Below are positions 29,885 through 55,925 of a stretch of DNA of 64,000 bases, one piece after another. Position numbers and translations under genes: made by a program. The notes beneath the pieces were generated by a model that saw only the letters and a program-made list of their open reading frames with translations, was not told the origin of the DNA and ran no database searches. The DNA comes from Escherichia phage slur09. The number at the start of each line of letters is the position of its first letter. Within the stretch, counting starts at the first letter, position 1. The DNA lies in the sequence record NC_028840.1; one strand, given 5' to 3'.

Positions 29885-31759
29885 TTATTTAGCTCGAATA
29901 TCCTGATGTTTCACCCTGCCCATCACCTCGTGCTGTTTGCCAGGGTTAAATGGACGAGCACCCGGATTTCCAAGATACCCACAAACTCGACGAGTTACTT
30001 CAAGAGTTTCGGGGTCATGATTACCACAGATAGGGCACTTAAATCCATCTTCGGATGCTATTGTTTCACCTAAGAATCCACATTTACCACAAGAATCCAC
30101 TGGAGTATTAATACCGAAGTAATGAACCTTACTAGCAGCATAATTAATAACCCATTCCAATGCATCTGGGAATCGTTTCATATCCGGTAATTCTACGTAG
30201 GAAATACACCCACCAGAAGCAATCGGAGTAAAGTTAGACTCATAATCAAATTTCACGTTAGGAGCAACTTTACGTTCCACATCAAGGTGGTGAGAGTTAG
30301 TGTAGTACCCTTTGGACAGAATATCTTCATGCTCCGGGAAATATTCACGGTCTAGACGACAAAAACGGTCACATAGGGATTCTGATGGTGTAGCATACAG
30401 GCTATAACCTAATTTAGTTTCTTCCTTCTTCTGATCGACTCTATCTCGCATGTACTGCAATACACGCTGAACAAACTTGATGCAGGTCTCGGACATTGTG
30501 TCTACATCTTTGCCAAACATGAACTGTAGCATTTCATGGCAACCAATATACCCTAGAGATACAGAAGCACGGTTATAGAAATGATCGAATACATACTCAT
30601 CAGGCCCTAAGCGTAATCCAAAGGCTCCTGACATATAGAGGATGGGTGCGGCTTTAGCTTGAATGTATTTTAAGCGATCAACTCTCCACTCCAATGCTTT
30701 TAACGCTGTATCCACACGTAGCTCAAGCAAATCAAAGAATAGATCAATATTCCCTTCAGCTTCGATAGCAATTCTAGGCAAGTTTACAGAAACAACACCT
30801 AAGTTATTACGGCCGGCAGTTTCACCATCTTCTGTAGCAGCTAGGAATGAACGGCAGCCCATAGAAACTTTGTAGTCTCCAGTAACTTCTACAACCTTGT
30901 CATAGCTGATATAATCTGGATACATACGTTCAGCAGTACATTTCATAGCTAACTTCTTGATGTCATAATTAACATCTCCTGGTTTCATATTTACACCATC
31001 ACGAAGTACAAATACCAGTTTCGGGAAGATAGCTGTACGTTTATTGATACCTAAGCCATCCATGCGTACTTTCAGTATTGCTTTCTGTACTAGACGTGCT
31101 TCCCAAGAAGTTCCTAGACCAAAACCAAAGGTAATAAATGGACTCTGACCATTAGAGTTGAACATGGTATTGATTTCATATTCTAAACCCTGACAAGCGT
31201 CATAGACTTCTTTTTCAGTCATCTCCGTAGCCATTACGGATGCTTTGGCTTCATCCTTAGTCCAACGTTTTGCAAACGCATGATTTTTATCATAGGATTT
31301 ACGAACATAAGGGGCTAATACTTCATCAAGGCGATCCACAGAAGTACCACCATACTGATGGGAGCTAACTTGAGTGATAATCTGAGCAGTAATAGCCGCC
31401 GCAGTAGTGATAGAATTTGGAGTGCTAATTTCAGCATTACCAACCTTCATACCATTCTTTAACATATCTTCCAGAGCTACCAGACAACAATTAGTCATGC
31501 CTAATGCAGCATAATCAGCATCATGGAAATGAATATCCCCAATCATATGAGCATTTCGAATCTGAATTGGCATTTCTTCTAGAATCAGATACTTACTCAA
31601 TTCGCCTGCAAGCATATCCCTTTGTGTAGGGAAACGTTCTGAGGGTTTATTGGCATTATTAAATAGCAGTTCTTCATCTGCTGACCCTTCGATAATCTCT
31701 TTGCAGTTTCTAATTAACGCCTGCATTTCTTTATATTTTAGTTCTTCATTACGATTCAT
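29885..31759 (-). CDS. nrdD: anaerobic ribonucleoside-triphosphate reductase (class III RNR)
   Basis: 624 aa; C-terminal glycyl-radical motif RVCGYLG and CxxC zinc site (CGKCG...CPICG). Confidence 0.92.
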   Translation of the reverse strand: MNRNEELKYKEMQALIRNCKEIIEGSADEELLFNNANKPSERFPTQRDMLAGELSKYLILEEMPIQIRNAHMIGDIHFHDADYAALGMTNCCLVALEDMLKNGMKVGNAEISTPNSITTAAAITAQIITQVSSHQYGGTSVDRLDEVLAPYVRKSYDKNHAFAKRWTKDEAKASVMATEMTEKEVYDACQGLEYEINTMFNSNGQSPFITFGFGLGTSWEARLVQKAILKVRMDGLGINKRTAIFPKLVFVLRDGVNMKPGDVNYDIKKLAMKCTAERMYPDYISYDKVVEVTGDYKVSMGCRSFLAATEDGETAGRNNLGVVSVNLPRIAIEAEGNIDLFFDLLELRVDTALKALEWRVDRLKYIQAKAAPILYMSGAFGLRLGPDEYVFDHFYNRASVSLGYIGCHEMLQFMFGKDVDTMSETCIKFVQRVLQYMRDRVDQKKEETKLGYSLYATPSESLCDRFCRLDREYFPEHEDILSKGYYTNSHHLDVERKVAPNVKFDYESNFTPIASGGCISYVELPDMKRFPDALEWVINYAASKVHYFGINTPVDSCGKCGFLGETIASEDGFKCPICGNHDPETLEVTRRVCGYLGNPGARPFNPGKQHEVMGRVKHQDIRAK

Positions 31760-31788
31760 TATACTCTCCTTCTCTAACTAAGACTACT

Positions 31789-31817
31789 ATTATAACTCAT
31801 TCGAGGGCGGATGTCAA
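31789..31817 (-). promoter_or_regulatory. consensus sigma70 promoter for nrdD (TTGACA-N17-TATAAT, minus strand)
   Basis: Perfect -35 and -10 hexamers with 17-bp spacer, about 30 bp upstream of the nrdD start; RBS AGGAG follows. Confidence 0.65.
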
Positions 31818-32009
31818 CAATATTTTACTGTAAAGTTCTGTAACATGATCTGAGTCAAAAAATTTTATTTGCCAACCTCTATTAAAAATCGTATAATCAC
31901 GCACTCGTGTATGCGATATAAAATGATTATCTAGTATCACACATCTCCCGTTAAAAGCAAGCAAATTTTTTATTTAAATGCAATATCATAGGCTTATTTA
32001 AAATTGTAG

Positions 32010-32038
32010 TTGCTTTTTACTGTATATATTGGTATAAT
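32010..32038 (+). promoter_or_regulatory. T5-type early promoter upstream of phoH
   Basis: TTGCTT-N17-TATAAT. Confidence 0.6.
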
Positions 32039-32111
32039 ATATTTGTAAGTTGATAAACAAGATCTTTTTGTTGATCCTCTGTTAGCGAAGTACACTATAG
32101 GAGTGTTATTT

Positions 32112-32864
32112 ATGGGAAAAGCACGTCAAAAAAGAGAGAACCGCAATGGTTCAAGAAAGCGTGGCAACAAATATGAGAATAACGTAATTCAGGCTGATTT
32201 TTCTAATGATTACGCTAACCCAGTTGCTAAATCCCTAGTAGGTAAAAACCGCGAGCAAAAATCATATATCAATATGATCAAGAACAACACAGTGACTGTG
32301 GGTATCGGTGAGCCAGGTACTGGTAAAACTTTTATTCCGTCCGTTCTTGCAGCTCAGGAACTCGTAGACATTCACTCAGATATTGAGCAAGTGATTCTCG
32401 TACGTCCTAATGAACCTCTAGGTAAGTCTCTTGGTATGCTTCCTGGTGATCTAGCGGAAAAGCTAGAGCCTTGGTTGGAGCCAATAGCTGATGGTATGAA
32501 ATGGGCCATCGGCGATCATGCATATAAAGGATATGTCGAACGTCAGAAAATTAAATTTTTGGCTATCGAACATGCTCGTGGCAGAACTTTCAACAACTCC
32601 TATGTAATTGTCGATGAAGCTCAGAATATTTCCGTTGAGGCAATGATTTGTCTCCTAACTCGTGTAGGACAAGACTGCCGTTTAATTATCTGCGGAGATA
32701 TAGCTCAGAAAGACATTAAAGGTGACTCAGGTCTAGCACTCCTTATGGAAGTCTATGAAAAATACGAAAATGCCCCATTCTCAATGATCGAATTGATTGA
32801 TAACGTTCGTTCTATTGAGTCTAAAGCATTCTATGATATTTTTAAAGACATGGGGAAGGTGTAA
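32112..32864 (+). CDS. phoH: PhoH-like ATPase
   Basis: Walker A GEPGTGKT, Walker B IVDEAQN; start at ATG 32112 after AGGAG RBS (ORF track starts at 32103). Confidence 0.85.
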   Translation: MGKARQKRENRNGSRKRGNKYENNVIQADFSNDYANPVAKSLVGKNREQKSYINMIKNNTVTVGIGEPGTGKTFIPSVLAAQELVDIHSDIEQVILVRPNEPLGKSLGMLPGDLAEKLEPWLEPIADGMKWAIGDHAYKGYVERQKIKFLAIEHARGRTFNNSYVIVDEAQNISVEAMICLLTRVGQDCRLIICGDIAQKDIKGDSGLALLMEVYEKYENAPFSMIELIDNVRSIESKAFYDIFKDMGKV

Positions 32865-32865
32865 T

Positions 32866-33087
32866 ATGGGAAACGTCGTTCATCTGAGCCGTAAAACTAA
32901 AATACATCGTACTTCACTGAGTGCTGCTAATATGATTACACGTAAGGAAGGGGAAGAAAGTCCTAAGACAACCCTAGCGTGGAAAATTGTAACCTCAAAT
33001 CCAAATAAACCATTCAACTATAACGAGCTGAGCACCTCCATAGATATTCTATTAAAAGAAGTAGCTAGAGCTAAAGTAATTGAATAA
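32866..33087 (+). CDS. hypothetical small protein
   Basis: ATG overlapping the phoH stop (TAATATG); longer ORF in track starts inside phoH. Confidence 0.4.
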   Translation: MGNVVHLSRKTKIHRTSLSAANMITRKEGEESPKTTLAWKIVTSNPNKPFNYNELSTSIDILLKEVARAKVIE

Positions 33088-33229
33088 GCTAAAAAGCTAG
33101 ACTGGTAGTATACAGGGCCTGGGTATGAAAATACTCGGGCCTTTTCTATCAGAAAATTTTATTTGCCTAATGACCGATAATAAAGTAGAATATTCCTTAA
33201 ATCCTGATAACTATAAAAAGGAAAGCCAA

Positions 33230-35560
33230 ATGAGCCATCGCATTGAAAAAGTAATTAAACGTGACGGTACTGTAGAAGACTTTGCTCCTGAAAAACTCAA
33301 TGGTTGGGCAGAGTATGGTTGCAAAACAGTTGATGTAAGTTGGTCAGCCATTACTATGGCTGCTCAAAAAACTCTGCCTAAAGGGGTTGTAGATTCCGAC
33401 ACTCTGATGGATGCATTAATTAAAGCTGCTGAAAGTCTTATCAAAGATAATCCAGCATATGATGTGCCGGCAAAGGAATTACGTCTTGCGCAAATGCGTA
33501 AACGCCTTTATGATTCTTTCGAACCACCTTCTCTACGCTTCTTCCATGACCATATGGTTAGCGTAGGTGCATGGGAAGACATGAGTGCATGGATTACCGA
33601 TGAGCAATTTGAAGCTCTGAATCAGGTTATCGACCATGATCGTGACCGTCTTTTTACTAGTGGTGGGCTAAAGCAGTTCTTTGATAAGTATTCCCGTCGT
33701 AACATAGCCACTGGTGAAATTTATGAAACTCCGCAGTTTGCCTACATGGGTATGGCAATGGCGATGCTATCTCAACCTAACTGGACAATTCTAGATGCAA
33801 TCGACCTCTACAACGCAATGTCACTCCACAAAATCAACGTTCCTACGCCGCCACTGGTTGGTCTGCGCTCTAGTGACCGTGGATTTGCTAGTTGCTGCCT
33901 CGTGGATTCCACTGACACGTTGGATTCAATCGACACCGCCGAGCACATCGTCTTCAAAATGGTCGCAGCCAGAGCGGGAATCGGGTATCATCTTGAAAGC
34001 CGATCAATTGCTGATCCGGTGCGAAATGGGGCATTCCCGCATTCCGGAAAACTGCCATATTATCGACACATTGACCGCTCAGTAAAGGCCAATACTCAGC
34101 AAACTCGTGGTGGTTCTGCCACAGTGTCTTATCCGTACTTCGACCCTGAAATCATTCAATTGATGCAGGTTAAGCAACAACGTGCTACAGATGAGAATAA
34201 AATCGATAAGATGGATTATTCTCTGAGCTTTAACAATCTTTTGTTAAAACGTTATCTTAAAAACGAAGATATTACGCTAATGTCATACTTCTATGCTCCA
34301 GAAGTTCATGAAGCGTTTTATAGTGATGACGAGGCTAAATTTGAAGAAATCTACGTGGCAGCGGAGAAACGTGTGGCATCTCTTACAAAGATCGACCACG
34401 AAGGAAAAACAGTTCCTGCAGCTCCTAAAGTCTCTGCAAAAGAAATTCTAGATACTTGGCTACGTATCCGAATGGAAACAGGACGTATGTATGCTCATCA
34501 CATTGGGGAATCTAATCGTCACGGTAACTTTCTTGATCCGATCCGTATGACAAACCTTTGTGTTGAAATTACTCAGCCTACACGCCCGTTCCATCATATC
34601 ACAGAGCTGTATAAGACAAAAGAGCAGCTTGATCAAATGAAGCCGGAGGATATTGGTGAAGTATCTCTGTGTAACTTAGGTGGTGTTGTACTTGGACGCA
34701 TGGAATCTCTGGCTGAGTGGGAAAAAACTTGCTACATCCTTCTGAAATTCGTTGATACAATTATTGAAATTCAGGATTATCCGTTCCCAACTATGGAATA
34801 TACGGCTAAGAAACGTCGTAATGTTGGTATTGGCCTGATGAACGCAGCAGGTGCAATGGCAGCAGAAGGTCTGGCTTATGAAGGTATTGAAGCCCGTAAC
34901 TGGATTCACCGTGAGGCTGAAAAACTGTCTTACTTCCTGCATAAAGCCTCTGTACGCCTAGCTAAAGAACAGGGTGCATGTGAGTGGTTTGATCGTACTA
35001 AACCGTCTAAAGGAATTCTGGTAATCGACACGTACAAGAAAACTGTTGATGAACTGGTATCCGTAGGTCTAGAAATGGATTGGGAGTCTCTGCGTGCAGA
35101 TATTCTGAAATATGGTATGCGTAACTCTGTTCTGACTGCTCAGATGCCAGGAGAAAGTTCTTCTGTTCTGCTAGGAGTTACTAACTCTATCGAACCGCCT
35201 CGTAAGATTGTATCTATCAAGGGTAGTGCAGTAAATAAAGTAATTGCAATTGCTCCAGGTGCAACCGATTGGGAAACGTTAATGAGCTATAAACTGGCTT
35301 ATGACATTGATAGGGTAGAGTATATTAAGTGGAATGCTGTTTACCAGAAGTTCCTGAATCAGTCTTCAAGCTTCCAGTCGTATTATGACTACTCTAAATT
35401 CGAGAATGAAATCATTCCAGGCCCAGTAGTAGTTCGTGACTTCATGATCGCTGTTAAGTATGGTATAAAAACTTGGTATTATGCTAATTTTAACACTGAA
35501 AATGGTGGTGGAGCTGGTGAAGAAGCAGTAGGTTGTGCATCAGGAGGCTGTCAGTTATAA
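33230..35560 (+). CDS. nrdA: ribonucleoside-diphosphate reductase alpha subunit (class Ia)
   Basis: ATP-cone N-terminus (MSHRIEKVIKRDGTVEDF), catalytic Cys motifs (NLCVEI, SLCNLG) and C-terminal Cys pair; start set at the internal ATG after AGGAAAG (ORF track starts at 33125). Confidence 0.9.
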   Translation: MSHRIEKVIKRDGTVEDFAPEKLNGWAEYGCKTVDVSWSAITMAAQKTLPKGVVDSDTLMDALIKAAESLIKDNPAYDVPAKELRLAQMRKRLYDSFEPPSLRFFHDHMVSVGAWEDMSAWITDEQFEALNQVIDHDRDRLFTSGGLKQFFDKYSRRNIATGEIYETPQFAYMGMAMAMLSQPNWTILDAIDLYNAMSLHKINVPTPPLVGLRSSDRGFASCCLVDSTDTLDSIDTAEHIVFKMVAARAGIGYHLESRSIADPVRNGAFPHSGKLPYYRHIDRSVKANTQQTRGGSATVSYPYFDPEIIQLMQVKQQRATDENKIDKMDYSLSFNNLLLKRYLKNEDITLMSYFYAPEVHEAFYSDDEAKFEEIYVAAEKRVASLTKIDHEGKTVPAAPKVSAKEILDTWLRIRMETGRMYAHHIGESNRHGNFLDPIRMTNLCVEITQPTRPFHHITELYKTKEQLDQMKPEDIGEVSLCNLGGVVLGRMESLAEWEKTCYILLKFVDTIIEIQDYPFPTMEYTAKKRRNVGIGLMNAAGAMAAEGLAYEGIEARNWIHREAEKLSYFLHKASVRLAKEQGACEWFDRTKPSKGILVIDTYKKTVDELVSVGLEMDWESLRADILKYGMRNSVLTAQMPGESSSVLLGVTNSIEPPRKIVSIKGSAVNKVIAIAPGATDWETLMSYKLAYDIDRVEYIKWNAVYQKFLNQSSSFQSYYDYSKFENEIIPGPVVVRDFMIAVKYGIKTWYYANFNTENGGGAGEEAVGCASGGCQL

Positions 35561-35568
35561 TAAAAACA

Positions 35569-35594
35569 AGGAGATCTTCGGGTCTCCTTTTTCT
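35569..35594 (+). terminator. Rho-independent terminator after nrdA
   Basis: Hairpin AGGAGATC-TTCG-GGTCTCCT plus T-run. Confidence 0.7.
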
Positions 35595-35606
35595 TTGAAA
35601 TTTTAC

Positions 35607-35635
35607 TTGCTAATCGCTACCAGATTTGCTATAAT
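35607..35635 (+). promoter_or_regulatory. T5-type promoter upstream of nrdB
   Basis: TTGCTA-N17-TATAAT. Confidence 0.6.
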
Positions 35636-35666
35636 ATTCCTGAAATAGTGAGAAAGAGGAAAATCA

Positions 35667-36812
35667 ATGACTACTTTACTAAACCTGAATTGGGATCATA
35701 CTAACGCTGACCTTTTCCTGGGAGATTCTCTCGGTATCGCAGATTATGTACGTGTAGCACATCCAGAACTAGAACGTCTGGCACTTCTGCAACGCTCTCA
35801 ATTTTGGACTGAAACTGAAATCAGTCTGGAAGCAGATAAGAAACAATGGCCTAATCTCCCACGGGAAATTCAGGAAATTACACTCCTGAACTTAGCATGG
35901 CAGACTCAAACAGATTCCTTTATCAGTCGTGCTCCTGAAGCAGCTATTATGCCGCTTGTAAGTCGTCCAGAATTGGAAGGTATGCTCAAGCAGTGGAGCT
36001 ACTTCGAAGATCTGCATAGTCGTGCTTATAGCAATATTATTCGTAATGTGCTAACTGATCCAGCAGAATTTATTGATTCTGTAACCAAAAACCAAGAAGC
36101 ATTCGCCCGTATCGCTGATTCTGTTGAACTATTCGATGAGCTATATCAGTTAGGTCAGTATTTCATCGCAGTACGCGATCATCGTGGCGACAATACATAT
36201 CCAGAAACTGAGTTCCCTGAAGTTAAACGTGAAACTCAGGCTAAGCTATTAGATGCTTACTTTGCGATCTACGGTCTGGAAGCAATGCAGTTTTACGCAT
36301 CCTTTGCATGTACCTTTGCATTAGCAGAGAACGATATTCTGCAAGGTATTGCTAAAAATCTGCAATTAATCGCTAAAGATGAAGCTCTGCACACTCAGAT
36401 GTCCAAAGCAATCATCCAGATTATGTTCCAGCAGTTTGACAAAGATCTGGTGGATGAAGCATTGGCTAAAGCACCAGCACAGCTCCTGAAAACTCTGAAA
36501 ACTGAAATTGAATGGGGTCATTTCATTTTCAAAGGTCGTAGTCTGATTGGTTTGAACGCAGAACTTCTAGAAGAGTACCTATATTTTGTGGGGCGTAATG
36601 CGTTTATGCACATTGGGGTAGAATGGCCTAGTCATTTACCAGTAATCACCAAAAACCCTATTCCGTGGATCATGAACTGGTTGGATACCACTTCTTTACA
36701 GCCTGCTCCACAAGAAATCCAGATTGGTGCAGCCTACCGTGTAGGTCAGGTAACTGAGACCTCTACGGATACTCTGAAAGATCTGGGCAATGAATTTGGA
36801 GATTTCTTATGA
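35667..36812 (+). CDS. nrdB: ribonucleoside-diphosphate reductase beta subunit
   Basis: 381 aa; di-iron ligand pattern (EALH, ENDILQ) and tyrosyl radical region. Confidence 0.9.
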   Translation: MTTLLNLNWDHTNADLFLGDSLGIADYVRVAHPELERLALLQRSQFWTETEISLEADKKQWPNLPREIQEITLLNLAWQTQTDSFISRAPEAAIMPLVSRPELEGMLKQWSYFEDLHSRAYSNIIRNVLTDPAEFIDSVTKNQEAFARIADSVELFDELYQLGQYFIAVRDHRGDNTYPETEFPEVKRETQAKLLDAYFAIYGLEAMQFYASFACTFALAENDILQGIAKNLQLIAKDEALHTQMSKAIIQIMFQQFDKDLVDEALAKAPAQLLKTLKTEIEWGHFIFKGRSLIGLNAELLEEYLYFVGRNAFMHIGVEWPSHLPVITKNPIPWIMNWLDTTSLQPAPQEIQIGAAYRVGQVTETSTDTLKDLGNEFGDFL

Positions 36813-37342
36813 TAACGGCATTATATGCAGTTGGGCCGAATGGGGAGTTCGGCCTCCGAGGTAAACTCCCCTGGGGTTCCTTCAAAGAAGAACTAGATGC
36901 TTTCTACTCCCAACTGGACGTGTTGAACCCAGATAACATCATCATTGGTGCGGGTACTTATTTAGCACTTCCAGAAGTTGTTCGGCAACGTATGATTGGA
37001 GAATCTGACCTCTTTATTCGTGCGGATCGTCCTCTGCCTGATGATATTAAACATGGTATCTATACCCCGATTTCAAAGATTGGGGATACATTACCTACTT
37101 TCTTAAAAGATCAGCAGACAGTGGTTTTAGGTGGCGCAACATTACTATACGAAATGTATATTCATGGACATATTGAAAGTGCTTTTGTATCCACAATCTT
37201 TAGTAATCAAAAACTAGAGGCAGATGTACATCTGGATAATATGATTCTAGATTACAACTATGAATCTACTCGTTTAGTTTACGCAACTGGCGCAAACAGT
37301 GATAACAGCCTGCGATTTGTACAGGAATTGGTTACTTATTAA
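36809..37342 (+). CDS. frd: dihydrofolate reductase
   Basis: 177 aa; position between nrdB and thyA, DHFR-like N-terminus (ITALYAVGPNGEFG); overlaps the nrdB stop (ATGA). Confidence 0.75.
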   Translation: MITALYAVGPNGEFGLRGKLPWGSFKEELDAFYSQLDVLNPDNIIIGAGTYLALPEVVRQRMIGESDLFIRADRPLPDDIKHGIYTPISKIGDTLPTFLKDQQTVVLGGATLLYEMYIHGHIESAFVSTIFSNQKLEADVHLDNMILDYNYESTRLVYATGANSDNSLRFVQELVTY

Positions 37343-38181
37343 TGCAACAATATTTAAAAATTCTAACAGATGTAATTCTACTAGGTGAACCACGTAACGA
37401 TCGTACAGGAACAGGCACAGTTTCAATTTTTGATTCCTATGCTAAGTTCGATTTACGTGAGGGATTCCCAGCTGTAACTACTAAACGTCTAGCTTGGAAA
37501 TCGGTAGTTGGAGAACTCTTATGGTTTTTATCTGGATCTACAAATCTCCATGATCTACGAGTATTCACATTTGGGCGTGACGAAGGACAGTGGACTATCT
37601 GGACTCCAAATTATGAAGACCAAGCCATAAGCATGGGTTATGACAGAGGTAATCTGGGGCCAGTATATGGTAAACAATGGCGCAACTTTGGTGGACGAGA
37701 TCAGATCCTAGAACTCATTGAGGGTCTCAAGAATAATCCACATGGTCGTAGACACCTAGTATCTGCATGGAACGTAGCTGAACTGGATAAGATGGCATTA
37801 CCACCATGTCACTATGGTTTCCAATGTTACGTAAGTAATGATGGATACTTAGATCTTAAATGGACACAACGTTCTGTAGACTGTTTTCTAGGTCTGCCTT
37901 TCAATATTGCTAGCTATGCTTTATTAACACATATCCTGGCAAAACTGACTGGATTAAAACCCCGTTATCTTATCTTTAGTGGGGGAGATACGCATATTTA
38001 TAGTGATCATATAGAGCAAGTAGAGGAGCAAATGAAACGTAAACCACGTCCTTTGCCAACTCTAGTAATGCCAGAATTTGTAGATCTCTATGATTTATTA
38101 GAGAATAATACTGCGGCTTGGTCCTTCCAACTTGAAGGATATGATCCACATCCAGCTCTTAAAGCTAAAATGTCCTCTTAA
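37342..38181 (+). CDS. thyA: thymidylate synthase
   Basis: 279 aa; active-site LPPCHYGFQCYV motif and DRTGTGT N-terminal motif. Confidence 0.92.
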   Translation: MQQYLKILTDVILLGEPRNDRTGTGTVSIFDSYAKFDLREGFPAVTTKRLAWKSVVGELLWFLSGSTNLHDLRVFTFGRDEGQWTIWTPNYEDQAISMGYDRGNLGPVYGKQWRNFGGRDQILELIEGLKNNPHGRRHLVSAWNVAELDKMALPPCHYGFQCYVSNDGYLDLKWTQRSVDCFLGLPFNIASYALLTHILAKLTGLKPRYLIFSGGDTHIYSDHIEQVEEQMKRKPRPLPTLVMPEFVDLYDLLENNTAAWSFQLEGYDPHPALKAKMSS

Positions 38182-38187
38182 CTTAAG

Positions 38188-38212
38188 TAGCCCTTCGGGG
38201 CTATTATATTTA
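38188..38212 (+). terminator. terminator hairpin after thyA (AGCCC-TTCG-GGGCT)
   Basis: GC stem with TTCG loop followed by T-rich tract. Confidence 0.6.
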
Positions 38213-38220
38213 AATTTCAT

Positions 38221-38249
38221 TTGCTTATTTAGTGAAATTTAAATATAAT
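38221..38249 (+). promoter_or_regulatory. T5-type promoter
   Basis: TTGCTT-N17-TATAAT. Confidence 0.6.
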
Positions 38250-38274
38250 ATATTTTATAAATTGGAGGTATATA

Positions 38275-38556
38275 ATGATCTCAGCCAAAGAAGCTCAAGA
38301 ACTTGCAGGATTAACAGAAGTACCCGCATTTCTAAAGTTTATAGAAGAAAAGATTGTAGAAGCTGCTAAGTCTGGAAATACAGAAGTAATTATTCGAGAT
38401 AATCCTTACGCTAGGTGGCTATATAATCCTAGAGAAATGCCAGGAGCAGCTAAATCGGTACTAAAAACCTTATCGGATAAGGGGTATCATCTCTCACAAT
38501 ACTACCGAGAAGCCGCCTTTGTAGACATGGGTCTTAAAATTAGTTGGGAGGTATAA
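38275..38556 (+). CDS. hypothetical protein
   Basis: ORF track, 93 aa, GGAGG RBS. Confidence 0.5.
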   Translation: MISAKEAQELAGLTEVPAFLKFIEEKIVEAAKSGNTEVIIRDNPYARWLYNPREMPGAAKSVLKTLSDKGYHLSQYYREAAFVDMGLKISWEV

Positions 38557-39032
38557 TGTCGGTTTTCCACATTTACACAGATGGTGCTTGTAAGTCTAAC
38601 CCAGGTCCAGGTGCTTGGGGTTTTATTGTCTATGATGATAACGACGATCGTTTAGGTTCTAAATCTGGTTATAGTCCTAAAACTACAAATAATGAGATGG
38701 AACTCACAGCTATTGTAGAAGCTCTACGTTGGTCTGTTAAAAAAGATAATAGACCAATTGCTATCTATACTGACTCTGCTTATTGCAAAAATGGCATGGA
38801 AAGTTGGATGTTTTCTTGGCAAAGGAAAGGCTGGAAGAAAGCAGATGGTGAAGCTCCTCTTAATCTAGAACTTTGGCAGGAAGCATTTAAATTAACACAG
38901 CAGTATATCAACTTTCATAATACTAACCCTACATTTATTAAGGTTAAAGGACATTCTGGTATTAGTGGTAATGAAGCTGTAGATGCCTTATGTAATACAG
39001 TTATTACTGAAGCTGAAATGGCTGAGATGTGA
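38556..39032 (+). CDS. rnh: ribonuclease H
   Basis: RNase H motifs (IYTDGAC, ELTAI, YTDSAY, GHSG...NE.VD); start at ATG after GGGAGG (ORF track starts at 38544). Confidence 0.85.
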   Translation: MSVFHIYTDGACKSNPGPGAWGFIVYDDNDDRLGSKSGYSPKTTNNEMELTAIVEALRWSVKKDNRPIAIYTDSAYCKNGMESWMFSWQRKGWKKADGEAPLNLELWQEAFKLTQQYINFHNTNPTFIKVKGHSGISGNEAVDALCNTVITEAEMAEM

Positions 39033-52616: not shown

Positions 52617-52802
52617 ATGTCCAAGAATGTAATTGCACAGTTAGAAGTTCATCGTGATAGCACTATCAACAATATTGAAGTTGAGAAGAAATACATCGAA
52701 GAACTTAAACATGATATACTAGTAAGTCTTAATCGTCTTAATGTACGAAAAGACTTTCTTAAAGAACTTAATGCAGCTATTGAAAAACTCAAAGCTGAGT
52801 AA
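52617..52802 (+). CDS. hypothetical protein
   Basis: ORF track, 61 aa. Confidence 0.45.
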   Translation: MSKNVIAQLEVHRDSTINNIEVEKKYIEELKHDILVSLNRLNVRKDFLKELNAAIEKLKAE

Positions 52803-52811
52803 ATGAATTAT

Positions 52812-52888
52812 GCGACCGGGGCTGGCTTGGTAATGGTACTCCCCTGTCACGGGAGAGAATGTGGGTTCGAATCCCATCGGTCGCGCCA
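52812..52888 (+). tRNA. tRNA-Asp (anticodon GTC)
   Basis: Acceptor GCGACCG/CGGTCGC, anticodon arm CTCCC-CTGTCAC-GGGAG, T-arm GTGGG-TTCGAAT-CCCAT, encoded CCA. Confidence 0.75.
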
Positions 52889-52914
52889 AACTAAACTAGC
52901 ACGAGAAATATGCT

Positions 52915-53262
52915 ATGATTAATGCTAAAGAAGAATTGTTACTTGCCCTAAAGAATACTAATTCTGAAGTTAAGTGTATTAAGATAGAATTCGGTTATTA
53001 TGGGGACAAAGAAGTTTGGGTATTACCCGTAGGTTATACAGAAAAAGATATTGAAGATTTTCTAAATAATCTAGACTTTAAATATGATTCTGGTTTCGGT
53101 GGACAATTGCTTTATGGTAACGTATGGTTTACTGATGGAACTTGGTTAGAACGTGGTGAATATGATGGTTCTGAATGGTGGGAATATAAGACTACACCAG
53201 CAATTCCAGAGGAATGTCGAACAATTAATGGTGAAGTAGATCATACATTACTATTAAATTAA
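52915..53262 (+). CDS. hypothetical protein
   Basis: ORF track, 115 aa. Confidence 0.5.
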   Translation: MINAKEELLLALKNTNSEVKCIKIEFGYYGDKEVWVLPVGYTEKDIEDFLNNLDFKYDSGFGGQLLYGNVWFTDGTWLERGEYDGSEWWEYKTTPAIPEECRTINGEVDHTLLLN

Positions 53263-53384
53263 CAAAATTTCAGTGCAGAACACGGAGCTAGCAATTCGGA
53301 AGTGCCGACTCATGATAGGCTGCCTATGTACTTGCGAAGCGGTCGTGTCCAAGACTCGGACTCTTGCACTGAAAACAATCAAAC

Positions 53385-53505
53385 ATTCTAGCGTGGTTGA
53401 TGGGGAAACCAGCTTGGCTAGGGCAGAAGCTCGTTCGATTCGAGTGAAAGAATGGTTCTCGTAAGTCCGCACAAGTGATAACAGGTTCGAGTCCTGTCTA
53501 GAATG
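53385..53505 (+). ncRNA. tRNA-like RNA (about 121 nt) with a roughly 53-nt insertion in the anticodon arm
   Basis: Perfect 7-bp acceptor ATTCTAG/CTAGAAT; D-arm TGGT/ACCA with GG-containing loop; anticodon-type stem CTTG/CAAG enclosing 53418-53470; T-arm ACAGG-TTCGAGT-CCTGT. Confidence 0.4.
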
Positions 53506-53514
53506 ACACTATAA

Positions 53515-53637
53515 AGTTTACTTATTATGTAGGTTCCGATAGATCGGCGGGTCTATTCTGGCATTTAAGAGAGGTCTCGCAAACTTCTTTGTCAGCCGTG
53601 GGGTTGATAGCCTCCAGGTGGCCTACACAATAAGTAA
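53515..53637 (+). repeat. 17-bp inverted repeat (TTTACTTATTATGTAGG / CCTACACAATAAGTAAA, one mismatch) flanking an 89-bp core
   Basis: Arms at 53515-53531 and 53621-53637 are reverse complements with a single mismatch; no ORF inside. Confidence 0.6.
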
Positions 53638-53654
53638 ATTTATTAAAAATTCAT

Positions 53655-53683
53655 TTGCTATTCTGCTTAATTATCTGTATAAT
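53655..53683 (+). promoter_or_regulatory. T5-type promoter
   Basis: TTGCTA-N17-TATAAT. Confidence 0.6.
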
Positions 53684-53715
53684 ATATTTTATAAAGTGAA
53701 GAGAAGGAAAGCAAA

Positions 53716-53913
53716 ATGAAAAAAGTTTTACTGCTGTCTGTATTCCTACTCACTGGTTGTTTTAAACTTGACTCAACCATTAATAAAGAGTATGAATTTG
53801 CTAAAAATTTCTGTGGCGGAGAGAGTAATATAAAGAATTTCTACATATATAGTACAATTCCTAGTACCGTTTATTGTGTAGACGGACGAATTATTAATAT
53901 TCCTCCACAATAA
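53716..53913 (+). CDS. small lipoprotein (lipobox LLTGC)
   Basis: 65 aa; MKKVLLLSVFLLTGC signal peptide with lipobox Cys. Confidence 0.55.
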   Translation: MKKVLLLSVFLLTGCFKLDSTINKEYEFAKNFCGGESNIKNFYIYSTIPSTVYCVDGRIINIPPQ

Positions 53914-53922
53914 AAGAATTAA

Positions 53923-53998
53923 CAGTGCGTAGCGCAGTTGGTAGCGTGGGAGCCTTGGATGCTTCGGGTCGCAGGTTCGAGTCCTGCCGCACTGACCA
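53923..53998 (+). tRNA. tRNA-Pro (anticodon TGG)
   Basis: Acceptor CAGTGCG/CGCACTG, D-arm GCGC/GCGT, anticodon arm GGAGC-CTTGGAT-GCTTC, T-arm GCAGG-TTCGAGT-CCTGC, encoded CCA. Confidence 0.8.
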
Positions 53999-54004
53999 AA
54001 CAAT

Positions 54005-54082
54005 TGCGGGTTAGATCTCTGGTAGAGATCGCTAGTCTCATAAGCTAGAAAGAGGTAGGTTCGATTCCTGCACCCGCTTCCA
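54005..54082 (+). tRNA. tRNA with CAT anticodon (Met/Ile2/initiator candidate), U1-U72 mismatch
   Basis: Acceptor TGCGGGT/ACCCGCT (first pair U-U), D-arm GATC/GATC, anticodon arm CTAGT-CTCATAA-GCTAG, T-arm GTAGG-TTCGATT-CCTGC. Confidence 0.6.
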
Positions 54083-54102
54083 TTTTAATAGAGGATTTCG
54101 AA

Positions 54103-54267
54103 ATGAAAGTATTTCGATTAGTAGTAAGTGACAAACGTTTAGGTAAGAATACCTCAAAATCCTTACTTGCTCATTATGGAAAAGACGAGAAAGAAGTAAT
54201 GGCGGAGTTTGGGATTAATCACCCTTACTTGAAAGTTCACTCTATTAAGGAAGTTTATGCTTATTAA
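54103..54267 (+). CDS. hypothetical small protein (54 aa)
   Basis: ATG shortly after the tRNA; below ORF-track cutoff; stop overlaps the start of ORF 54257. Confidence 0.35.
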   Translation: MKVFRLVVSDKRLGKNTSKSLLAHYGKDEKEVMAEFGINHPYLKVHSIKEVYAY

Positions 54268-54845: not shown

Positions 54846-55083
54846 ATTTATATAAATTGATGAGGAGAAATCCTCATCATAGTTCACTAAGGTATTAGCT
54901 CGACCTAGGACTGGCTGCCAAAAAGCACGATCCCTTCTACTTGGGAGGAGTTCTAGATTAGTCCACTAGATTCAGTGGCAACTGAGTAGTGTATCGGGTT
55001 TGCGAGATGACGTAGTTCCTTCCGCTCGAAGCGAAGGTGCTGTAGTTACGCCGAGCTAATAGCCTTAGTAAACTAAAGAATTT

Positions 55084-55802: not shown

Positions 55803-55925
55803 GCCGCCACAATTGAAAATTCGTACTCGTCTTGAGCTGCGTGCAATAGGAGATAACTTGATTAGTATTCTAGAACATGCTAATTGAGGATGGTTTCGCT
55901 AACCCTGCGAGTTTTCAATTGTGGC
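55803..55925 (+). repeat. 14-bp perfect inverted repeat (GCCACAATTGAAAA / TTTTCAATTGTGGC, extendable to about 18 bp with one mismatch) flanking a 95-bp core; 3' arm overlaps the 5' end of tRNA-His
   Basis: Arms at 55803-55816 and 55912-55925 are exact reverse complements. Confidence 0.55.

What the first reader, a model, noticed from the sequence alone, without database searches (positions are those of the whole stretch)
53515..53637. 17-bp terminal inverted repeat flanking an 89-bp ORF-free core
Near-perfect 17-bp inverted repeats (one mismatch) enclose 89 bp. This could be a long RNase III-type hairpin in the tRNA precursor, a MITE-like miniature mobile element, or a homing-endonuclease target site. 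It lies immediately upstream of a promoter and a lipoprotein gene.
Basis: seen in the sequence. Interest (0 to 1): 0.55.

Follow-up and report, generated by a model that had tools for sequence, protein, structure and literature searches.

The report
Terminal stem of phage T5 RNA IV
The inverted repeat is real, but it is the closing stem of an already catalogued small stable RNA ("RNA IV", function unknown) in the tRNA gene cluster of T5-like phages, not a mobile element or an endonuclease site.

Summary
The repeat exists: arms 53514-53533 and 53622-53641, 88 nt apart, far beyond chance. The window is a T5-like phage. The element is 97% identical to the gene annotated "rnaIV, stable RNA with unknown functions" in the T5 and BF23 GenBank records, which maps to window 53527-53629.

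The arms form the base of a 24-bp terminal helix. This helix closes a cloverleaf-like four-way junction with two invariant loops, GGCG and the anticodon-like CUCGCAA.

Thirty-nine variants support the fold: 96.7% of cells are paired, against 38-51% for shifted controls, and 27 pairs show compensatory changes. These variants include a distant homologue in Erwinia phage KEY, where the outer stem also covaries. G·U pairs show that the + strand is the RNA.

The element is single-copy and syntenic in 405 phage genomes, so the MITE and homing-site readings fail.

The outer 13 bp pair the 5' leader with the 3' trailer. They most likely act as a double-strand processing signal that releases and protects RNA IV; RNase III is inferred, not shown. 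A single mismatch is conserved at the annotated 5' end.

The outer arms are unusually invariant, perhaps because the 3' arm overlaps the upstream region of promoter P13a. The function of RNA IV remains unknown, and it is dispensable in laboratory T5.

The parts
53514..53526 (+). Outer 5' strand of terminal helix P1.
   Evidence: It pairs with 53629-53641. It is invariant in 32 T5/Epseptimavirus variants. In the Erwinia phage KEY homologue the sequence differs but still pairs, with double changes at 5 pairs.
53527..53629 (+). RNA IV, 103 nt. The ends are taken from the rnaIV misc_RNA annotation of T5 and BF23 by homology.
   Evidence: T5 rnaIV (NC_005859 32838-32940) aligns to the window at 97% identity over 103 of 103 nt. 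BF23 carries the same annotation, as does AY543070 (H62).
53630..53641 (+). Outer 3' strand of P1. This is the 3' trailer and the right arm of the repeat. It overlaps the start of the annotated P13a promoter fragment.
   Evidence: T5 P13a (32757-32831) maps to window 53636-53710. This strand is deleted naturally in phage vaffelhjerte.
53514..53537 (+). Full 5' strand of helix P1. The helix has 24 pairs with 53617-53641, one conserved mismatch at 53527 or 53528, and a bulged U at 53619.
   Evidence: Pair counts are, with G-C to A-U changes at column pairs 22/113, 19/116, 23/112 and 27/107. The mismatch sits at column 17 or 18 in every lineage.
53617..53641 (+). Full 3' strand of helix P1.
   Evidence: Same evidence as for the 5' strand.
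53538..53557 (+). Hairpin H1: 8 bp with the invariant loop GGCG (53546-53549). It follows P1 with no linker, so the two can stack coaxially.
   Evidence: 99.4% of cells are paired and 4 pairs show double changes. RNAalifold predicts it independently. The loop is also conserved in KEY.
53558..53595 (+). Long arm made of P2 (53558-53563 / 53590-53595), an internal loop, and H2 (53569-53575 / 53583-53589). It carries the 7-nt loop CUCGCAA (53576-53582), invariant in the T5/Epseptimavirus set (CUCGCA kept in KEY).
   Evidence: P2 is 94.4% paired and H2 98.9% paired, each with 4 pairs showing double changes. The block GTCTCGCAA is invariant in alignment A3. CUCGCA is retained in KEY.
53600..53614 (+). 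Hairpin H3: 3-4 bp with a 7-nt loop UUGAUAG, T-arm-like in size only.
   Evidence: All 4 pairs show double changes in the model-fitted alignment. It is less certain because this stretch carries indels.
53655..53683 (+). Sigma-70 promoter (T5 P13a), -35 TTGCTA and -10 TATAAT, directly downstream of the 3' arm.
   Evidence: plus the T5 and BF23 annotations. The promoter persists in phages that lack the lipoprotein ORF.
53384..53508 (+). Upstream neighbour RNA2, a tRNA-like stable RNA. It ends 5 nt before P1.
   Evidence: T5 rna2 aligns here at 96% identity.

Best explanation
The inverted repeat is the base of a 24-bp terminal helix (P1) that closes the gene for RNA IV. RNA IV is a small stable non-coding RNA of about 103 nt. 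It lies in the tRNA gene cluster of T5-like phages and is transcribed on the same strand as the tRNAs.

The RNA folds as a cloverleaf-like four-way junction:
- P1, the terminal helix.
- H1, 8 bp with a GGCG loop, stacked directly on P1.
- A long P2/H2 arm ending in an invariant anticodon-like loop, CUCGCAA.
- H3, a short hairpin with a 7-nt loop.

Shown here: the identity with annotated rnaIV, the helix and fold, the strand, and the single-copy syntenic conservation.

Inferred: the leader-trailer duplex is the processing signal by which RNA IV is cut out of the polycistronic transcript. The most likely route is a double-strand cut by host RNase III at the conserved single mismatch, which coincides with the annotated 5' end, followed by a little 3' trimming. 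This would leave a mature RNA with an exonuclease-resistant terminal stem of 10-11 bp.

The extreme sequence invariance of the arms within the T5/Epseptimavirus group is best explained by a double constraint. The 3' arm also lies in the A/T-rich region at -60 to -40 of promoter P13a, so neither arm can drift.

What the mature RNA does is unknown. The invariant loops sit on freely covarying stems, which argues that it binds a partner through those loops.

Sub-confidences: identity and helix about 0.95; leader-trailer processing role about 0.6; RNase III specifically about 0.4.
For: - T5 and BF23 records annotate rnaIV as 'stable RNA with unknown functions' at the homologous position. Identity is 97% over 103 nt.
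- The fold is supported on 33 MAFFT-aligned variants: 95.8% of cells are paired against 38-51% for slid controls, and 10 pairs show double changes against 2-4.
- RNAalifold independently returns P1, H1, P2 and H2.
- With the KEY-type homologues added, 96.7% of cells are paired and 27 pairs show double changes. These include outer-stem pairs 7/128, 9/126, 10/125, 11/124, 13/122 and 14/121.
- KEY folds the same way on its own.
- Strand: -49.4 against -37.8 kcal/mol, and 155.9 against 30.2 bits. Many G·U pairs would be C·A on the other strand.
- Exactly one mismatch sits at column 17 or 18 in all lineages, at the annotated 5' end.
- In KEY the whole helix fits exactly between a stop codon and the first base of tRNA-Tyr.
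- A sequestered 5' leader blocks E. coli RNase P (abstract of PMC7897497). This favours a double-strand nuclease for the first cut.
- The outer arms have 1 of 26 variable columns against 43 of 79 in the core, Fisher p = 1.7e-6.
- The 3' arm abuts or overlaps annotated P13a.
- RNA III in the same window has the same design, a 20-bp terminal helix.
Against: - No processing enzyme was tested, and none can be tested with these tools.
- The annotated ends (5' at the mismatch, 3' one nt past it) give a 1-nt 3' overhang, not the 2-nt overhang RNase III leaves. They also fit a tRNA-style layout of a 7-bp acceptor stem plus discriminator. They may therefore reflect RNase P-type maturation, or may have been assigned by analogy rather than mapped.
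- Within the T5/Epseptimavirus set the outer stem never varies, so its pairing there is not proven by covariation. The covariation comes from one distant lineage (KEY, AAS21 and one metagenome contig), aligned with a structure-aware model.
- Phage vaffelhjerte lacks the outer 3' arm, so the outer duplex is not indispensable.
- The primary papers on T5 stable RNAs were not available in the searchable library.
Confidence: 0.75

Rival explanations
1. tRNA-style maturation rather than RNase III. RNase P would cut at 53526|53527, treating 53527-53533 / 53622-53628 as a 7-bp acceptor-like stem with A53629 as discriminator. The 3' trailer would be removed by RNase E and exonucleases, possibly with CCA addition. 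On this view the outer duplex is incidental, or a brake on processing.
For: - The annotated ends match an acceptor stem plus discriminator exactly.
- Other T5 stable RNAs in the cluster end in tRNA-like GCCA or ACCA: RNA I and RNA3.
- The element sits among tRNAs.
- In KEY its 3' side abuts tRNA-Tyr, so RNase P cleavage there would define the base of the helix.
Against: - The leader is base-paired over 13 bp, and sequestered leaders inhibit E. coli RNase P (PMC7897497 abstract).
- No tRNA model recognises the RNA.
- No CCA is encoded.
Confidence: 0.3
2. The whole 24-bp helix is kept in the functional RNA. It would serve as a sequence-specific docking site for a phage or host double-strand-RNA-binding protein, in the manner of a Y-RNA. 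The annotated 103-nt ends would then be predictions only.
For: - The outer arms are far more conserved than pairing alone requires.
- In KEY the full helix is squeezed exactly between a CDS and a tRNA.
- A single conserved helix imperfection could be a recognition feature.
Against: - The T5 and BF23 records give 103-nt ends inside the helix.
- The KEY arms differ in sequence.
- Vaffelhjerte lacks the outer 3' arm.
- No Y-RNA-like Rfam family matches at E up to 10.
Confidence: 0.12
3. The hairpin is a transcription terminator or insulator. It would end the upstream unit before promoter P13a.
For: It is a very stable hairpin placed about 15 nt upstream of the -35 element of a promoter.
Against: - No terminator-like site was found. 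The helix is A/U-rich at its base and is followed by AUUAAAAAUUC rather than a U tract.
- The interior is a conserved branched structure with invariant loops, which a terminator does not need.
- In KEY a tRNA follows directly with no promoter in between.
Confidence: 0.05
4. A DNA-level element: a miniature inverted-repeat transposable element, a homing-endonuclease target, or a cruciform.
For: Terminal inverted repeats flank a short non-coding core. The flanks of the element are indel-prone: tRNA-Gly and the lipoprotein ORF are each present or absent in different phages.
Against: - There is one copy per genome in 405 records.
- No other arm copy is found in the window or in the rest of the phage SCF genome.
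- There is no target-site duplication.
- The element is never absent or interrupted within the clade.
- G·U pairs and the strand asymmetry of folding show selection on the RNA, not on duplex DNA.
Confidence: 0.02

Closest known systems
rnaIV (RNAIV) misc_RNA of Escherichia phage T5 (NC_005859 / AY543070, 32838-32940) and BF23 (NC_042564, 5371-5473)
   Same: It is the orthologue. Identity is 97% over all 103 nt. The neighbours match (RNA2 upstream, promoter P13a downstream), and so do the strand and the position in the tRNA cluster.
   Different: Nothing essential differs. The records give only 'stable RNA with unknown functions' and do not mention the leader-trailer duplex, a structure or a distribution. 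Those were worked out here.
Leader-trailer processing stems cut by RNase III (16S and 23S rRNA precursors; T7 early mRNA sites such as R1.1). This comparison rests on established knowledge and was not tested here.
   Same: A 5' flank pairs with a 3' flank to form more than 20 bp of duplex around a stable RNA. A small internal imperfection lies at the presumed cut. The product keeps a terminal stem.
   Different: Cleavage by RNase III is not demonstrated. The annotated ends give a 1-nt overhang rather than 2 nt. The helix is much more sequence-invariant than known RNase III sites need to be.
tRNA and the tRNA-like stable RNAs of phage tRNA clusters (T5 RNA1, RNA2, RNA3, RNA I and RNA III; T4 species 1 and 2 RNAs, the last from memory)
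   Same: It has a four-way junction with a terminal stem and three hairpins. It has a 7-nt loop with the anticodon-loop pattern Y-U-NNN-R-N (CUCGCAA). It lies among tRNA genes. RNA III in this window shares the design of a long terminal helix plus three hairpins.
   Different: The Rfam tRNA model and ARAGORN do not recognise it. The arms are the wrong size: H1 has 8 bp with a 4-nt loop, and the 'anticodon' arm has about 13 bp. There are no canonical D-loop or T-loop sequences and no encoded CCA. Model R1 finds no paralogue in the window.
Miniature inverted-repeat transposable elements
   Same: Short terminal inverted repeats flank a core of about 90 bp with no ORF.
   Different: It is single-copy and syntenic, has no target-site duplication, and its interior is under selection for RNA structure.

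Membership tests
T5/BF23 RNA IV (annotated stable RNA) | Sequence orthology to the annotated rnaIV gene | tested here: met
   Identity is 97.1% over 103 of 103 nt, mapping to window 53527-53629. The H62 row shows 'rnaIV: RNAIV' under the match.
T5/BF23 RNA IV (annotated stable RNA) | Same genomic context (after RNA2, before promoter P13a and tRNA-Pro/tRNA-fMet, on the tRNA strand) | tested here: met
T5/BF23 RNA IV (annotated stable RNA) | Accumulates as a discrete stable RNA in infected cells | not testable with these tools
   Only the wording of the database records is available. The primary papers were not found in the library.
tRNA (Rfam RF00005 / ARAGORN) | Scores as a tRNA with sequence-and-structure models | tested here: not met
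   cmscan at E up to 10 gives no tRNA hit over 53511-53644, while the neighbouring tRNAs score 44-63 bits. ARAGORN finds nothing at default or -ps settings. Only a meaningless 2-nt-anticodon call appears at -ps50.
RNase III processing site | About 20 bp or more of near-continuous double-stranded RNA | tested here: met
   P1 has 24 pairs with one mismatch and one bulge, and is contiguous with the 8-bp H1.
RNase III processing site | Cleavage depends on RNase III and leaves a 2-nt 3' overhang | not testable with these tools
   The annotated ends imply a 1-nt overhang.
MITE / small mobile element | Multiple dispersed copies sharing the terminal repeats | tested here: not met
   There are 409 places in 405 records. 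No second copy with up to 3-4 mismatches is found in the window or in the rest of the phage SCF genome, apart from one 3-mismatch chance hit inside the tape-measure gene.
MITE / small mobile element | Target-site duplication, and presence/absence polymorphism at the locus | tested here: not met
   The flanks CACTAT and ATTAAA are not direct repeats. The element is present in all Tequintavirus and Epseptimavirus loci examined.
Intrinsic (rho-independent) terminator | G+C-rich stem followed by a U tract | tested here: not met
   No terminator-like site is found in 53200-54000. The tail is AUUAAAAAUUC.
Y RNA / YrlA-like and other Rfam families | Match to any curated covariance model | tested here: not met
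   No family other than chance-level hits matches at E up to 10 across 52800-54200.

The most novel reading that the evidence does not exclude
RNA IV may be a tRNA-shaped effector rather than a leftover of tRNA-cluster evolution. Its invariant anticodon-like loop (CUCGCAA) and GGCG loop, presented on a rigid extended helix, would bind and neutralise or redirect a host factor. Candidates include a tRNA-targeting defence nuclease, an RNA repair or quality-control protein, or a modification enzyme. The frozen outer helix would then be a specific protein-recognition site. This would add a non-tRNA RNA to the counter-defence repertoire now known for the T5 tRNAs (tRNA-Lys against PARIS, tRNA-Tyr against Retron-Eco7).
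Probability: 0.12. Interest if true: 0.7.

Novelty: already known. Interest (0 to 1): 0.3.

Why it matters
The feature itself is catalogued: rnaIV has been annotated in the T5 and BF23 records, so the finding is not a discovery.

Its value is as a reminder that T5-like phages carry several conserved, structured stable RNAs of unknown function inside a tRNA cluster. Recent work shows that this cluster encodes counter-defence tRNAs (PMC11464382; PMC11555353).

This analysis provides four things:
- A covariation-supported secondary structure.
- The observation that the leader-trailer duplex and two loops are the constrained parts.
- A distant homologue in the Erwinia and Pantoea phages.
- The point that many deposited genomes annotate spurious 'hypothetical protein' ORFs over this RNA.

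Together these make the open question of what RNA IV does experimentally approachable. They do not answer it.

Tried and rejected
- **Rfam.** cmscan at E up to 10 over 52800-54200 found only the flanking tRNAs.
- **ARAGORN.** Default and relaxed settings, with and without introns, gave nothing credible for RNA IV. Allowing introns recovered RNA2 as tRNA-Arg(CCG) with an insert.
- **E. coli genomes.** BLAST of the element against 5,426 genomes gave no match, so it is not host-derived.
- **IMG/VR.** Two pattern scans and one neighbour-protein scan returned only the same T5-like isolates and one chance hit, L065.
- **Metagenomes.** A degenerate-pattern scan returned mostly chance matches. Six were T5-like copies and one was KEY-like, L087.
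- **Covariance models R1 and R2.** Searches of a 40-kb tRNA region of a Klebsiella T5-like phage and of the Acinetobacter phage 133 locus found no homologue. The best score was 17 bits, for plain hairpins.
- **Base-pairing target for the invariant loop.** A perfect 9-nt exact match (extendable to about 10 bp) lies in RNA 2H at window 54999. A 9-mer is expected about 0.4 times per strand by chance. The site is altered in S132-type Epseptimaviruses and has no counterpart in KEY, so it was treated as chance.
- **Shared promoter module.** The idea that the arms belong to a module common to T5 promoters was rejected, because there is no other copy.
- **Literature.** Searches for the primary T5 and BF23 stable-RNA papers and for T5 RNA-end mapping found nothing usable.

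Full report
**1. The observation**

The sequence holds an inverted repeat with arms 53514-53533 (AAGTTTACTTATTATGTAGG) and 53622-53641 (CCTACACAATAAGTAAATTT). The arms are 20 nt, 90% complementary as DNA, with 88 nt between them. One of the two DNA mismatches is a G·U pair in RNA.

It is not chance:
- No shuffle of the window gives a second match to the arm.
- Repeats of this quality occur 3 times in the window, against 0.025 expected.
- The + strand RNA folds at -49.4 kcal/mol, z = -5.4. The - strand folds at -37.8 kcal/mol.

The core has no ORF. A 33-aa GTG ORF at 53618-53719 overlaps only the 3' arm and the promoter.

**2. What it is**

The window is the tRNA region of a T5-like phage. It holds 21 tRNA genes, all on the + strand. 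The 53263-53715 stretch is 97% identical to phage T5 and 99.8% identical to Salmonella phage SCF.

The T5 RefSeq record annotates two misc_RNA genes in exactly this intergenic stretch:
- rna2, 'tRNA-like stable RNA'.
- rnaIV, 'stable RNA with unknown functions', at 32838-32940.

By alignment and BLAST, rnaIV maps to window 53527-53629 at 97% identity over all 103 nt, and rna2 maps to 53384-53508. The BF23 tRNA-region record and AY543070 carry the same rnaIV annotation. Promoter P13a of T5 maps to 53636-53710.

The annotated mature ends lie inside that stem. The outer 13 bp (53514-53526 with 53629-53641) pair the 5' leader with the 3' trailer.

**3. Structure and its support**

I collected 33 distinct variants from T5-, BF23-, Epseptimavirus- and phiR2-01-type phages, spanning 77-100% identity. 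Window position equals alignment column plus 53510.

The structure has five helices:
- P1, columns 4-27 with 107-131.
- H1, columns 28-35 with 40-47, loop GGCG.
- P2, columns 48-53 with 80-85.
- H2, columns 59-65 with 73-79, loop CUCGCAA.
- H3, columns 90-93 with 101-104, with a 7-nt loop.

On the plain MAFFT alignment, 95.8% of cells are paired, against 38-51% when partners are slid by 1-3 columns. Ten pairs show changes on both sides, against 2-4 for the slid controls. RNAalifold independently returned P1, H1, P2 and H2.

Many positions are G·U, at column pairs 6/129, 24/111, 25/110, 28/47, 34/41, 51/82, 59/79 and 63/75. On the opposite strand these would be C·A. The covariance model scores the + strand at 155.9 bits and the - strand at 30.2 bits. 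Selection therefore acts on an RNA made from the tRNA strand, not on duplex DNA.

**4. The outer stem specifically**

Within the T5/Epseptimavirus set the outer arms never vary: 1 of 26 columns is variable, against 43 of 79 in the core (Fisher p = 1.7e-6). Between the window and the 77%-identity type there are 0 of 26 differences in the outer arms, against 32 of 79 in the core. That is strong constraint, but it is not evidence for pairing.

The evidence for pairing comes from a distant homologue found with the model in Erwinia phage KEY (45.5 bits, E about 4e-9). The same sequence is in Pantoea phage AAS21, and a near-identical one is on a metagenome contig (L087). In these the outer arms have a different sequence but still pair, with double changes at 7/128, 9/126 or 10/125, 11/124, 13/122 and 14/121.

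KEY folds into the same architecture without the model (z = -3.8). The GGCG loop and CUCGCA are retained. In KEY the helix fits exactly between the stop codon of a CDS and the first base of tRNA-Tyr.

Two caveats apply. This is one independent lineage, and it was aligned with a structure-aware model.

A striking detail is that every lineage keeps exactly one mismatch in P1, at column 17 or 18: A×C, A×G, A×A or A×C. This coincides with the annotated 5' end of RNA IV.

Phage vaffelhjerte has lost the outer 3' arm by deletion, so the outer duplex is not absolutely required.

**5. Rejected readings**

*Mobile element.* There is one place per genome in 405 records. No further arm copy is found in the window or in the remaining 45 kb of the closest genome, apart from a 3-mismatch chance hit inside the tape-measure gene. 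There is no target-site duplication, and the element is always at the same locus.

*Homing-endonuclease site.* No adjacent endonuclease gene is present, and no empty or split sites were seen. The indels lie in the flanks, where tRNA-Gly and the small lipoprotein ORF come and go. They do not lie in the element.

*Terminator.* There is no U tract and no terminator-like site.

*tRNA.* Rfam and ARAGORN do not recognise it. No other Rfam family matches, and there is no similarity to E. coli DNA.

**6. How it most likely works**

Shown: a stable-RNA gene whose precursor carries a 24-bp leader-trailer helix, contiguous with the 8-bp H1.

Inferred: the duplex is the signal that excises RNA IV from the polycistronic tRNA-cluster transcript and leaves it with a protected terminal stem. 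I favour an initial RNase III cut (about 0.4) for three reasons:
- The leader is sequestered in 13 bp of duplex, and sequestered leaders block E. coli RNase P (PMC7897497 abstract).
- The helix length and the single internal imperfection resemble known RNase III sites. This rests on established knowledge and was not tested here.
- The same design recurs at RNA III, 55806-55925.

The main rival (about 0.3) is tRNA-style maturation. The annotated ends equal a 7-bp acceptor-like stem plus a discriminator A, and RNA I and RNA3 end in GCCA and ACCA. It is also possible that the annotated ends were set by analogy and that the full helix is retained.

The invariance of the arms in the T5 group may reflect a double constraint, because the 3' arm lies in the A/T-rich region at -60 to -40 of P13a. 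KEY has no promoter there, and its arms differ in sequence.

**7. Function of the mature RNA**

The function is unknown. Two loops are invariant across lineages whose stems have turned over: GGCG, and CUCGCAA, which has the Y-U-NNN-R-N pattern of an anticodon loop. This argues that the loops contact a partner. The GCG of one loop and the CGC of the other could also pair with each other, but that cannot be tested because neither varies.

A perfect 9-nt exact match (extendable to about 10 bp) to the H2 loop lies in RNA 2H at 54999. It is not conserved in S132-type phages or in KEY, and it is within chance expectation.

RNA IV is dispensable in the laboratory. The viable T5Mos strain lacks 30661-38625, which includes rnaIV (PMC11464382).

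**8. Distribution**

The element is present in Tequintavirus, Epseptimavirus, phiR2-01 and Enterobacter KKP_3711 types, and in the KEY/AAS21 lineage. The model did not find it in a 40-kb region of a Klebsiella T5-like phage or in the Acinetobacter phage 133 locus.

**9. Verdict**

The feature is the terminal helix of the already annotated T5/BF23 stable RNA IV, so its novelty is 'already known' and its interest is modest. The open and interesting part is what RNA IV and its sibling stable RNAs do.

Noticed in passing
window 55806-55925: A second inverted repeat of the same design, with 17-nt arms and an 86-nt core. It is T5 'RNA III' (55814-55919), closed by a perfect 20-bp helix (-46.8 kcal/mol, z = -5.4). 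The outer 8 bp of that helix use the GCCA 3' end of RNA I plus a CAAU spacer on one side, and the first bases of tRNA-His on the other. Processing of three adjacent RNAs may therefore be coupled.
   Followed up: partly
window 53384-53508 (RNA2): With introns allowed, ARAGORN reads this 'tRNA-like stable RNA' as tRNA-Arg(CCG) carrying a 48-nt insertion at anticodon-loop position 34. A 98-nt stretch that includes the insertion is 76-90% identical in Erwinia phage KEY and Klebsiella T5-like phages. It is about 80-86% identical over about 60 nt in T4-like Acinetobacter phages 133 and Acj9, where it is unannotated. Enterobacter phage KKP_3711 annotates a 70-nt tRNA-Arg(ccg) at the same place.
   Followed up: partly
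window 53268-53374: About 100 nt of unannotated non-coding sequence, conserved in T5, is closed by the stem CAGUGCAGA / UCUUGCACUG. The fold is only marginally better than shuffles (z = -1.9). Very relaxed ARAGORN sees a degenerate tRNA-Gly(GCC) at 53289-53367. BF23 and the Epseptimaviruses carry an intact tRNA-Gly(GCC) nearby instead.
   Followed up: partly
window 53312-53464 and 53618-53719; the same places in many GenBank records: Deposited genomes, for example Salmonella phage SCF, annotate 'hypothetical protein' CDSs over RNA2 and over the RNA IV 3' arm plus promoter. Most records annotate nothing here. These ORF calls are probably spurious.
   Followed up: no
window 53716-53913: The 65-aa ORF with a lipobox-like LLTGC is optional. 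It is present in T5 (as the shorter T5.066), SCF (annotated 'Rz-like spanin') and EH3. It is absent in BF23, bobsandoy, bux and S124, where P13a leads straight into tRNA-Pro.
   Followed up: no
window 54999 (inside RNA 2H, 54893-55064): GGGUUUGCGAGAU is complementary to the invariant RNA IV loop region, giving 10 Watson-Crick pairs flanked by wobble pairs. It is conserved in Tequintavirus types but changed to UUUGUGAAG in S132-type phages. KEY has no counterpart. It is probably chance.
   Followed up: yes
window 43036-43094: A third strong inverted repeat: 17-nt A/T-rich arms CAATTTAAAAATGTATT / AATATATTTTTAAATTG with a 25-nt spacer.
   Followed up: no
L037 (Salmonella phage vaffelhjerte) 599-730: A natural deletion of about 15 nt removes the outer 3' arm of the RNA IV helix and the A/T tract upstream of the promoter. 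The 5' arm is left intact but unpaired.
   Followed up: partly
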